Positions 21,056 to 23,221 of a stretch of DNA of 64,000 nt are shown one piece after another (positions within the stretch are counted from its first letter, which is position 1; every line of letters begins with the position of its first letter). A program made the translations under genes and the position numbers. The notes under the pieces were generated by a model. That model was not told the DNA's origin and did no database searches. It saw nothing but the letters and a program-made list of their open reading frames with translations. Source of the stretch: a virus (taxonomy: Duplodnaviria; Caudoviricetes). The stretch lies in IMG/VR virus record IMGVR_UViG_3300028833_000072; one strand, 5' to 3'.

Positions 21056-23221
21056 ATATTTAATGACAATATTTTTAGTATATCTACATTAAAAGATAAT
21101 TATGATAAAGCTAAACATCAATTATCTTTAGTAGAAAATAATAAAATTGATGGATTAGATCCTATCGATTATTTATTTAAAAGATTTGAAATGAATGTAG
21201 ATCCAATTTTTTTTATTGAAAATGTATTACGTGCTCATTTACCTGAGTTTAAACGCCATTTACATGCTAATCAAATAGAATTAATTAGAGCCGCTTGTAA
21301 TCCTAATATTAGAAAAGTAGCAGCTATGTTTTCAAGACAAAGTGGTTATTAATATGCCAAATATATAATTAATTAGATAAAATTCTTTATAACCGTAATT
21401 TTTTATAAAGATAATATCAACATAGAATTAATATAAACATTAATTAATATATGTTAGAGTATATATAATATATATTAGTAAAATAAATATATATACCAAA
21501 CTTAATATAACTATTAAGAAAATTTTATTAAATTTTTTATAATATAATTGAAAACTGAATCTATAGCTTGTTTCGCTGCAGCTTTAATATGTATTTATCC
21601 TCAAATGCGAATAGGTATATTTACGCCGCGAATTAATCAGGCTGAAGTTTCTATAGGTAGAGCCACAGTATTCTTTCAAATGAATGAAGATAAAATACCT
21701 CATAAAATAGTTAAATTAACAAAACAAAAAATAGAATTATCTAACGGATCTTATATGCAAGCTGTATCTGGTTCTGATCAAAGTAATATTGAAGGTTTAA
21801 CATTTGATATAGCTGTTTTAGACGAAGCTCAAAAAATTTCTAATTATACTACTAGTGAAAGAATATTACCTATGCTTGATATATTTCCAGGCATAAAATA
21901 AATAAATTGCTGGGAAAATTAATAAAAATTAATCAGCATAATTTTATATAAATTATCAATGACTATTAAATTTATATTTATGATAATAAAGATATAGTCT
22001 TTTAAATATATTAGTGGAGGTACAAATGGCAAAATAATTAAAATAGGTACTCCTAAATCACGTAATCATTTTTATGAAAGCATTGAAGGTAAGAATAGTG
22101 CTGATACTGTTATTATAAGATCTCCTTGGTGGCAATGTGATCAATTATCAGCCAATGGTTCTATTATGCTGCCAGATCATACAGATCCAGAACATAAACG
22201 TATAAGAAAATACTCTACTTATGTATTAAACCTCATGCCTAAAAAAATTAAAATGGAATGAAATTTGTTCTATAATTATTTAATTACTGAAAAAAAATAT
22301 ATAATCAGTAATATTATATTAAGATTATTAAAATAATATGCAACGACTATATGATATTTATATTTTATAATGATAAAGTCTAAACTTATTAAATAATAAG
22401 AAATTTAAATATATTAAATATTAATATTAATTGATTTCCCTACTAGACCAGACATTTATGAACAAGATGGCGAGATGTCAGTTATAGATTTCCAAACACA
22501 GTACGAATTACAATTTGTAGATAGTGGATCTTCTTTCCTTTCTAAAGAAGATTTTGAACAGCTACGTAATGGTGATTTTAGCTGGCAAAAATATGGTGAC
22601 TTGAGTGAAAAATATTATGTAGGTATAGATTTTGCCGGTGCAGCTAACGGAACCGATTCAACAGCTATATCTATATTAAGATTAGATAAATTAACACAAC
22701 AAAGACAAAAAATATTTGCTGTAGAATTAAAAGGCATGCCTTTTCCTCAACAAATGAAGATTATATTATCTTTATTTACTGGTCCTAGGCCTAAATTTAG
22801 ATATAAAAAAATAGTAGCTGATGCTACCGGTGTAGGATTAGGATTAATTCAAGTTATGAAAGATCAAGGATTAGATATAATACCTATTACATTTAACGCT
22901 AAAGATAGATTTACGAATACTAATACTAATTATAAAACAACTATGTATAGAGCTATTTTAGCTGCTATACAAAATGATAAATTTAAATATCCTTCTTTGG
23001 ATAATGTACCGAAAAATGACCACGTGTTTTTACATAAGCAGTTAATGCAATGGAGTGACCTTGTGGTAGAATCGATAAAAAGCAGTAATAATATCCGCGT
23101 GGAAAGTAGCACAACTAATGAGGATTTTTGTGATAGTGATGCCCTTTCTTATTTTGCAACAGTAATAGATCAAAAACAGCATAAAATGCCCAGCGGAATT
23201 ACTTACCGTTCTAGCAGATAA
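21056..23221 (+). CDS. terL: Terminase large subunit; 4 exons ~21056-21346, 21551-21876, 22015-22259, 22434-23221 (~549 aa)
   Basis: Splicing restores Walker A SRQSG|KT; Walker B AVLDEAQ; coupling motif IIKIGTP; nuclease GIDFAG, ADATGVG, DFCDS. Start uncertain (ATA at 21056 behind GGTGA, or ATG at 21191). Confidence 0.88.
21347..21550 (+). other. Group I intron 1 of terL (204 nt, ORF-less)
   Basis: P1 GGU/GCC with U•G; P7 G(A)GUAUA/UAUACC; ends AAUUG; splits Walker A exactly. Confidence 0.85.
21877..22014 (+). other. Group I intron 2 of terL (138 nt, ORF-less)
   Basis: P1 AUGCU/GGCAU; P AAUUGCUGGGAAA; Q AAUCAGCA; R UCAAUGACUA; S AAGAUAUAGUCU; P10 UUCCA/UGGAG; CT|T join gives ML-GGTNGK. Confidence 0.9.
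22260..22433 (+). other. Group I intron 3 of terL (174 nt, ORF-less)
   Basis: P1 AUGGAAU/GUUCUAU; P AAUUACUG; Q AAUCAGUAA; R GCAACGACUA; S AUGAUAAAGUCU; P10 GAAAU/AUUUC; T|AT join gives KME-YFPTRPD. Confidence 0.88.

What the first reader, a model, noticed from the sequence alone, without database searches (positions are those of the whole stretch)
21877..22014. A 138-nt group I intron, apparently below the usual minimal size
Seen in sequence: near-canonical P (AAUUGCUGGGAAA), Q (AAUCAGCA), R (UCAAUGACUA) and S (AAGAUAUAGUCU) blocks are packed into 138 nt. Only 14 nt separate S from the terminal G, leaving little or no room for P9, and P2 looks absent. Established: the Azoarcus tRNA-Ile intron (~205 nt) is the textbook minimal natural self-splicing group I intron and is GC-rich. 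Inference: this is either a new ultra-minimal ribozyme or it needs a trans-acting splicing factor.
Basis: partly seen in the sequence, partly recalled or inferred. Interest (0 to 1): 0.85.

Follow-up and report, generated by a model that had tools for sequence, protein, structure and literature searches.

The report
138-nt stripped-down group I intron in terL
A phage DNA-packaging gene is interrupted by a real but extremely reduced self-splicing-type (group I) intron of only 138 bases, the smallest of many miniature introns in this and similar giant phages; whether it splices unaided is untested.

Summary
Window 21877-22014 is a 138-nt, ORF-less group I intron in the terminase large-subunit gene of a 22% GC phage related to Bacillus phage G.

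- **Boundaries:** removing exactly these bases gives a gap-free, in-frame match to the uninterrupted phage G terminase. A closer relative (L243) is continuous across the site.
- **Structure:** the 5' exon ends in U paired to G in a 6-bp P1. The intron ends in G, and the guide sequence also pairs with the 3' exon (P10). P3, P4, P5, P6 and P7 and the junction nucleotides match a large phage intron class, which shows strong helix covariation.
- **What is missing:** P2 and P9 are absent, and P8 is three A-U pairs.
- **Detection:** Rfam's group I model misses it, and also misses other compact phage introns.

It is an extreme of a continuum, not unique. The same genome has a 153-nt sibling in its capsid gene and at least ten more introns. 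Huge-phage contigs carry many compact introns (estimated 163 nt and up). Published Jug phages average about 206 nt, and fungal rDNA has degenerate 56-81-nt introns.

This scan has already reported 127-194-nt mini-introns in Staphylococcus jumbo phages. Autonomous versus assisted splicing remains untested.

The parts
21551..21876 (+). terL exon 2 (Walker A end KTES... through Walker B LDEAQ to ...SERILPM + CU of codon 201)
   Evidence: 75% identical to phage G gp1 residues 94-201. Pfam Terminase_6N, E=1e-4.
21871..21876 (+). P1 5' strand (exon UAUGCU); U21876 is the splice-site U
   Evidence: Pairs with GGCAUA at 21890-21895, with a U.G wobble at the splice site.
21877..22014 (+). The 138-nt group I intron (terL intron 2), ORF-less, 19% GC
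   Evidence: Gap-free junction against phage G gp1. Splice-site search. Covariation in its class.
21884..21889 (+). Guide-sequence part that pairs with the 3' exon (P10; UUUCCA with UGGAGG at 22015-22020)
   Evidence: Read from the sequence. The splice-site search counts it.
21890..21895 (+). P1 3' strand / internal guide sequence (GGCAUA)
   Evidence: The P1 columns covary in the class alignment.
21898..21903 (+). P3 5' strand (AUAAAU), pairs with 21970-21975 (AUUUAU). The exon reading frame stops here (UAA at 21899-21901).
   Evidence: P3 columns are 94% paired, with compensatory changes in all 6 pairs.
21908..21938 (+). P4 (21908-13 / 21933-38), J4/5 GAAAA, and P5 hairpin (21919-23 / 21928-32, loop AAAA)
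21939..21955 (+). P6 hairpin (UAAUUU / AAAUUA, loop UAUAU)
   Evidence: P6 columns show compensatory changes in all pairs.
21956..21965 (+). J6/7 UCA plus the P7 5' strand A[U]GACUA (bulged U21960; G21961-C21999 is the presumed guanosine-site pair)
   Evidence: Pairs with 21995-22000. The class consensus is identical except that the bulge is C in most members.
21970..21975 (+). P3 3' strand (AUUUAU); with P7 it forms the core pseudoknot
21976..21987 (+). Vestigial P8 (AUU / AAU, 6-nt loop)
   Evidence: Only three A-U pairs. The sibling intron in the capsid gene has no P8 at all.
21988..22000 (+). J8/7 AAAGAUA plus the P7 3' strand UAGUCU
22001..22014 (+). 14-nt 3' tail ending in the terminal G (22014); there is no P9 hairpin
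   Evidence: Intron nt 128-137 are complementary to nt 1-10; this is unexplained.
22015..22259 (+). terL exon 3 (U completing codon 201, then GGTNGKIIKIGTPK...)
   Evidence: There is no in-frame ATG/GTG/TTG near its start, so it cannot be translated on its own.
21347..21550 (+). Neighbouring terL intron 1 (204 nt), inside the Walker A motif (RQSG|KTES)
   Evidence: Gap-free junction against gp1; sequence.
22260..22433 (+). Neighbouring terL intron 3 (174 nt), with P1 UGGAAU/GUUCUA and P10 AUUUC/GAAAU

Best explanation
Window 21877-22014 is a genuine, ORF-less group I intron reduced almost to its catalytic core, sitting in codon 201 of the terminase large-subunit gene of a phage G-like jumbo phage. 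Inferred mechanism, from the anatomy:

1. The transcript folds so that exon UAUGCU pairs with the guide GGCAUA (P1, with a U.G wobble at the splice site).
2. P4-P5-P6 and the P3/P7 pseudoknot build the guanosine site.
3. A free guanosine cleaves after U21876.
4. The 3' exon is aligned by P10.
5. The terminal G22014 enters the same site, and the exons are ligated to read ...PML-GGTNGK...

It derives from an abundant phage intron class that shares the same P/Q/R/S sequences. It has lost P2, the extra helices between P3' and P8, most of P8, and P9. Splicing must occur for the phage to make terminase. With no peripheral clamps and almost only A-U helices, I lean slightly (about 55:45) to splicing that is helped in vivo by general RNA chaperones, the ribosome or a dedicated protein, rather than robust unaided self-splicing. 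That step is inference only.
For: - **Exact boundaries:** the junction is gap-free and in frame against uninterrupted phage G gp1. The closest relative's terL (L243, 86% identical in exon 2) is continuous across this site.
- **Splice-site rules:** a U before the intron, a terminal G, a 6-bp P1 with U.G, and P10.
- **Core:** P3, P4, P5, P6 and P7 plus J3/4, J4/5, J6/7 and J8/7 match the consensus of the class.
- **Covariation:** on 72 distinct class members aligned to the intron's own structure, 90% of cells pair, against 36-49% when partners are slid. The covariation score is 0.44-0.52 against 0.12 or less, with compensatory changes in P1, P3, P5, P6 and P8.
- **Larger class members are recognised by Rfam:** they score 57-84 bits on RF00028, including one in terL within 1-2 nt of this site.
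- **A sibling exists in the same genome:** a 153-nt intron with the same architecture lies in the essential capsid gene, and its junction is also validated against phage G gp27.
- **An identical sequence has a separate record:** contig L249.
- **Exon 3 lacks its own start codon**.
Against: - No RNA data or biochemistry supports splicing.
- Rfam RF00028 gives no hit even at E<=10 on the isolated region.
- P8 is only three A-U pairs.
- The nearest-neighbour energy of the group I fold is about -7.5 kcal/mol, against -24.4 kcal/mol for an alternative fold. Other class members score similarly poorly, so this does not discriminate.
- No orthologous copy of this particular intron was found, so the covariation comes from the class and not from orthologues.
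- The class alignment was fitted to the model structure.
Confidence: 0.85

Rival explanations
1. It is a real group I intron and a fully autonomous ultra-minimal ribozyme. It self-splices in vitro with only GTP and Mg2+, despite having no P2, P9 or real P8.
For: All active-site elements are intact and match the consensus. A second intron of the same stripped design sits in the capsid gene, so the design works in vivo. Phage group I introns generally self-splice (my own knowledge: T4 td/nrdB/sunY, Twort). A 67-nt degenerate fungal intron is reported to self-splice in vitro (PMC3160393).
Against: No tetraloop-receptor or other clamp is visible between the two core domains. The helices are almost all A-U, the predicted fold is weak, and a far more stable misfold is available. 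AU-rich organellar group I introns typically need proteins (PMC2813881 gives the general statement).
Confidence: 0.38
2. It is a decayed, no longer splicing remnant, and terL here is a pseudogene or is expressed as separate pieces.
For: Rfam does not recognise it. P8 is nearly gone.
Against: All four terL exons are open, 37-75% identical to phage G gp1, and keep the Walker A, Walker B, IGTP and nuclease motifs. Exon 3 has no start codon. The core nucleotides are at consensus. The capsid gene of the same phage depends on a similar intron.
Confidence: 0.05
3. It is an assembly artefact: the true intron is longer and an internal segment was collapsed.
For: The sequence is AT-rich and of low complexity, and it comes from a metagenome assembly.
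Against: A separately recorded 1112-nt JGI contig is identical through the whole intron. Every core element is present in the right order with nothing missing from the middle. The 153-nt sibling shows the same design.
Confidence: 0.03
4. The insert is bypassed by some other route, such as ribosome hopping as in T4 gene 60, or removal at the protein level.
For: An in-frame stop (UAA, 21899-21901) lies shortly after the junction.
Against: The insert is 138 nt with several stops in all frames, and it has a complete group I core with P1 and P10 at the exact junction. It has no intein features.
Confidence: 0.02

Closest known systems
[quoted passage not shown]
   Same: They are ORF-less group I introns splitting essential genes, terL included, into several pieces. 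They are AT-rich and mostly missed by standard annotation. The best GenBank match of this intron is a roughly 165-nt intron in the Madawaska virion RNA polymerase beta gene (72% over nt 17-124). RNA reads confirmed splicing for 37 of 76 Jug phage introns.
   Different: Those average about 206 nt. The ones I examined keep a P9 hairpin and usually P2 or a real P8. This one has none of the three and is 25 nt shorter than the smallest I could delimit elsewhere.
Azoarcus sp. BH72 tRNA-Ile intron (subgroup IC3, ~205 nt; size from my own knowledge; crystal structures cited in PMC3984707)
   Same: It is a small ORF-less bacterial group I intron with the P3-P8 core and no large peripheral domains.
   Different: Azoarcus is GC-rich, sits in a tRNA anticodon loop, and has P2 and P9 whose tetraloops clamp the core. 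This intron is 19% GC, sits in a protein-coding gene, lacks P2 and P9, and is about 65 nt shorter.
Phage subgroup IA2-type introns (T4 td/nrdB/sunY, Twort orf142; engineered sunY 'miniribozymes' of ~180 nt, my own knowledge)
   Same: The P/Q/R/S consensus is the same as that of many phage introns recognised by Rfam RF00028. Several introns in one gene also occur in Twort orf142.
   Different: It has no P7.1/P7.2-type helices between P3' and P8. It is smaller than even the engineered sunY derivatives.
Degenerate 56-81-nt group I introns of fungal SSU rDNA (Phialophora PaSSU, 67 nt; PMC3160393)
   Same: They are natural group I-derived introns far below 200 nt, and one is reported to self-splice.
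   Different: Those keep only P1, P7 and P10, and lean on exon sequence. This intron keeps P3, P4, P5, P6 and P7 and all the core junctions.
Group I intron in the terminase gene of Lactobacillus phage LL-H (my own knowledge) and the terL-site introns of phage G relatives found here (L244, L245, L248, L243)
   Same: It is a group I intron in conserved terL motif-coding sequence. Relatives carry introns within 1-2 nt, 5 nt and about 35 nt of this site.
   Different: Those relatives' introns are larger: about 200 nt, and over 350 nt for the Rfam-positive one in L248. L243 has no intron at this exact position.

Membership tests
Group I intron | 5' splice site follows a U that forms a U.G wobble with the internal guide sequence in P1 | tested here: met
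   Exon UAUGCU pairs with GGCAUA, and U21876 pairs with G21890. It is the top solution of the splice-site search.
Group I intron | The intron ends in G, and the guide sequence also pairs with the 3' exon (P10) | tested here: met
   G22014 is the last base. UGGAGG (22015-20) pairs with UUUCCA (21884-89): 4 Watson-Crick and 2 G.U pairs.
Group I intron | Core helices P3, P4, P5, P6 and P7 in the canonical order, with the P3/P7 pseudoknot | tested here: met
   Hand fold checked. The same columns pair in 90% of cells in 72 class members, with compensatory changes.
Group I intron | P8 hairpin between P3' and J8/7 | tested here: inconclusive
   Only AUU/AAU with a 6-nt loop. The 153-nt sibling has no P8. 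The class P8 columns do covary.
Group I intron | Conserved junctions and guanosine site (A-rich J4/5, J6/7, J8/7, bulged nucleotide plus a G-C pair in P7) | tested here: met
   GAAAA, UCA, AAAGAUA and A[U]GACUA/UAGUCU all agree with the class consensus.
Group I intron | Reaches the Rfam RF00028 covariance-model threshold | tested here: not met
   No hit at the gathering score or at E<=10. The model also misses the compact introns in L133, L166, L129 and all the capsid-gene introns in L241, while it detects larger members of the same class.
Group I intron | Removal restores an intact, conserved coding frame | tested here: met
   Gap-free against phage G gp1. L243 is continuous across the site.
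Group I intron | Guanosine-initiated two-step transesterification (splicing activity) | not testable with these tools
   No RNA data or assay was available.
Subgroup IA2-type phage introns | Extra helices (P7.1/P7.2) between P3' and P8 | tested here: not met
   Only 12 nt lie between P3' and J8/7. Many class relatives have 60-85 nt between R and S.
Azoarcus-type minimal IC3 tRNA introns | Located in a tRNA anticodon loop, with P2 and P9 tetraloops docking on the core | tested here: not met
   It lies in terL codon 201. There is no tRNA in the window and no P2 or P9.
Degenerate 56-81-nt fungal rDNA group I introns | Only P1, P7 and P10 are retained, and the P3-P6/P8 core is absent (PMC3160393) | tested here: not met
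   P3, P4, P5 and P6 are present.

The most novel reading that the evidence does not exclude
This 138-nt intron, together with its 153-nt sibling in the capsid gene, is the smallest natural group I ribozyme that still has the full P3-P7 active-site core. Either it self-splices with no P2, P9 or real P8, which would redefine the minimal autonomous group I fold. Or it depends on a so far unknown splicing cofactor shared by the intron-laden phage G-like and other jumbo phages.
Probability: 0.35. Interest if true: 0.75.

Novelty: new variant of a known kind. Interest (0 to 1): 0.5.

Why it matters
If it splices unaided, a 138-nt natural group I ribozyme would be a new lower bound for the canonical fold. 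It would be useful for structural work, for folding studies, and as a very short scaffold for intron-based RNA circularisation. If it needs help, the many miniature introns in essential genes of jumbo phages point to an unidentified splicing helper, or to reliance on host chaperones.

There is also a practical point. Rfam and gene callers miss these introns, so terminase, capsid and polymerase genes of such phages are annotated as fragments.

Tried and rejected
- **Rfam scans.** Scans of the whole window, of 3 kb around the site and of the isolated 161 nt gave no group I hit, only chance matches.
- **Searching for related terminases.** The search for related loci with terL exon 4 in IMG/VR found no relative. 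An earlier call failed on a frame error.
- **Single-sequence model.** A covariance model built from this intron alone found no other significant copy in the 158-kb genome, and only two hits at E<1e-3 in 99 IMG/VR loci. Looser hits that seemed to span the model in 133-150 nt were forced end-to-end alignments of larger introns.
- **Automated size estimates.** My splice-site estimates for other introns are rough. One 144-nt prediction (L233) had no P10, and I do not trust it.
- **Fold energies.** Comparing nearest-neighbour energies across the class did not single this intron out. I therefore dropped 'thermodynamically weakest' as an argument.
- **Terminal complementarity.** The 10-bp complementarity between intron nt 1-10 and 128-137 (p about 0.005) crosses both P1 and P10 and is absent from the sibling intron. 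I could not give it a role.
- **Literature.** Phrase searches for a stated 'smallest group I intron' found nothing usable. No supplementary tables were held for the Jug phage paper. Two papers, Korn 2021 and Lavysh 2016, could not be opened.
- **ENA contig.** A contig with the identical exon 2 had no DNA available.

Full report
**Context**

The window is the last 64 kb of a 158.8-kb IMG/VR virus record. CheckV puts it at about 32% complete, and its GC content is about 22%. Its terminase and capsid proteins are closest to Bacillus phage G, a 497-kb phage: 75% identity on terL exon 2 and 76% on the capsid N-terminus. It is therefore a phage G-like jumbo phage from a metagenome.

The terminase gene (about 21056-23221, + strand) appears only as four open fragments. 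A tblastn of the uninterrupted phage G gp1 (L009) against the region gives three gap-free junctions: RQSG|KTES, PM(L)|GGTNGK and KME(Y)|FPTRP. These define inserts of 204 nt (21347-21550), 138 nt (21877-22014) and 174 nt (22260-22433). The finding concerns the middle one.

**Checking the observation**

Fourteen nucleotides follow S up to the terminal G. The combined P..Q..R pattern occurs once in the window, against zero matches in 100 shuffles.

A search over all U...G pairs that also demands an open frame on both sides and P1/P10 pairing returns 21876|22015 as the best solution.

A separately recorded 1112-nt JGI contig (L249) is identical over 21039-22150. I cannot tell whether it comes from the same sample as the IMG/VR record. 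The cluster of the read-through ORF also holds an ENA contig from another sample, but its DNA could not be fetched.

**Anatomy**

Positions below are within the intron; window coordinate = 21876 + position.

| Element | Positions | Sequence / note |
|---|---|---|
| P1 | exon -6..-1 with 14-19 | UAUGCU / GGCAUA, U.G at the splice site |
| P10 | 3' exon with 8-13 | UGGAGG / UUUCCA |
| Linker | 20-21 | AA; there is no P2 |
| P3 | 22-27 / 94-99 | |
| P4 | 32-37 / 57-62 | |
| J4/5 | 38-42 | GAAAA |
| P5 | 43-47 / 52-56 | |
| P6 | 63-68 / 74-79 | |
| J6/7 | 80-82 | UCA |
| P7 | 83, 85-89 / 119-124 | U84 bulged |
| P8 | 100-102 / 109-111 | three A-U pairs only |
| J8/7 | 112-118 | AAAGAUA |
| 3' tail | 125-138 | 13 nt plus the terminal G; no P9 hairpin is possible |

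The exon reading frame runs eight codons into the intron and stops at a UAA inside P3.

**Is this fold real?**

Rfam's group I model does not see the intron at any threshold. That negative result is weak. The same model scores 57-84 bits on larger phage introns with the identical P/Q/R/S consensus, including one in terL of a phage G relative within 1-2 nt of this site. Yet it misses the compact introns of L133, L166 and L129 and every intron in this phage's capsid gene.

Positive evidence comes from the class.

I built a covariance model from this intron's own structure and aligned 157 matches from 99 loci, of which 72 were distinct. On that alignment:

- 90% of cells pair, against 36-49% when the partners are slid by 1-3 columns.
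- The covariation score is 0.44-0.52, against 0.12 or less for the slid controls.
- Every pair of P1, P3, P5, P6 and P8 shows compensatory changes.
- P4 and P7 are sequence-conserved.

The alignment is fitted to the model, which inflates pairing. The slid controls and the many double changes argue that the helices are real. The intron's unpaired junction nucleotides agree with the class consensus.

**How small is it compared with others?**

Within the same genome, the capsid gene (L241, outside the window) is cut by nine inserts when aligned to phage G gp27. Their lengths are about 153, 270, 202, 196, 432, 815, 183, 194 and 227 nt.

The 153-nt insert (L241 10954-10802, minus strand) is the closest paralogue of the intron studied here. 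It has the same design:

- P1 of 7 bp and a perfect 6-bp P10.
- No P2 and no P9.
- No P8 at all.
- Compensatory differences in P3 and in the first P7 pair.

The design therefore recurs in two essential genes.

In IMG/VR, contigs of 200-400 kb carry many compact introns, sometimes three or four within 1 kb. My splice-site estimates for them start at 163-176 nt (L129, L166, L133). These keep a P9 hairpin, although some have lost P2, P5 or P8.

The best match among cultured phages is a roughly 165-nt intron in the virion RNA polymerase beta gene of S. aureus jumbo phage Madawaska. It has no P2 but has real P8 and P9 helices.

In the literature:

- Jug phages carry 2513 group I introns averaging about 206 nt. 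Their terL genes are split into two or three pieces, and RNA reads support 37 of 76 introns tested (PMC12880540).
- Intron-disrupted terL and polymerase genes are noted for AR9 and MarsHill-like phages, without sizes.
- Fungal rDNA has degenerate 56-81-nt group I introns that keep only P1, P7 and P10, and a 67-nt one self-splices in vitro (PMC3160393).

Earlier notes of this scan report 127-194-nt mini-introns in Staphylococcus jumbo phages. I did not verify those sizes beyond the Madawaska example. So 138 nt is the smallest full-core intron I could delimit myself, but it sits at the end of a continuum.

**The insertion site**

Fragments of related terminases break at ...SERIxPMG|.

- L244, L245 and L248 carry a larger intron within 1-2 nt of this site.
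- L243 is continuous here, but has other introns 5 nt and about 35 nt downstream (at IG|TP). It also has an intein at the Walker A site, where the window has intron 1.
- P0004 and P0006 also show inteins at Walker A.

This stretch of terL is a hot spot for mobile elements, which is typical of homing into conserved coding sequence.

**Mechanism and what remains open**

The exons are conserved and open, and exon 3 has no start codon. The insert must therefore be removed at the RNA level, and the anatomy is that of guanosine-initiated group I splicing.

Whether the RNA does this alone is open. It has no visible tertiary clamps, and nearly all its helices are A-U. Its group I fold scores about -7.5 kcal/mol, against -24.4 kcal/mol for a competing fold. 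Other class members look no better by this crude measure, and Jug phage introns of this kind do splice in vivo.

A 10-bp complementarity between nt 1-10 and 128-137 is unlikely by chance (p about 0.005). It is topologically incompatible with P1 and P10, and it is not shared by the sibling intron. I leave it unexplained.

**Verdict**

The intron is a new, more extreme variant of a known kind: compact ORF-less phage group I introns.

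Noticed in passing
L241:10802-10954 (-) = G000:C1:70202-70354, outside the window: A 153-nt group I intron lies in the major capsid gene (DPLPQGA|LPVYDKDV, gap-free against phage G gp27). It has the same stripped design as the 138-nt intron: no P2, no P9 and no P8 at all. It is followed by a 23-nt micro-exon.
   Followed up: partly
L241:7600-11120 (-): The 282-codon capsid gene is cut into about ten exons by nine inserts of roughly 153-815 nt. None of them is detected by Rfam.
   Followed up: partly
L241:7108-7334 (-): An Rfam HEARO RNA (the RNA associated with IS605-type TnpB/IscB) scores 99 bits just downstream of the last capsid exon. 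A TnpB-like ORF lies at L241:12485-13954 (-), and a Pfam-supported TnpB (OrfB_IS605) lies in the window at 12343-13851 (-).
   Followed up: no
window 19891-21040 (+): Two stand-alone ORFs directly upstream of terL have weak Pfam hits to Hom_end (E=0.008) and Hom_end_hint (E=1e-5). In relative L243 a 572-aa ORF fuses terL exon 1 to an intein at the Walker A site, exactly where this phage has intron 1.
   Followed up: partly
window 21877-21886 and 22004-22013: The first 10 nt of the intron are complementary to the 10 nt before the terminal G (one G.U pair), with p about 0.005. This pairing crosses P1 and P10, and its function is unknown.
   Followed up: partly
window 23419-25920 (+): An 833-aa protein next to terL has repeated HTH_17/MerR-type helix-turn-helix modules (Pfam E=3e-46).
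   Followed up: no
window 39861-41114 (-): A 417-aa protein has a borderline DALR anticodon-binding domain hit (E=2e-4, just under the Pfam cut-off), suggesting an ArgRS-like remnant. Its relevance as a splicing helper is pure speculation.
   Followed up: no
L126:10040-10720 on the reverse strand; L166:2700-4120: Contigs of 255-367 kb from IMG/VR carry three or four compact group I cores spaced about 200 nt apart, with very short exons between them. Some cores lack P5 or P8.
   Followed up: partly
window 21050-21060: terL exon 1 has no ATG/GTG/TTG start. An ATA at 21056, preceded by GGTGA, is the likeliest start codon.
   Followed up: no
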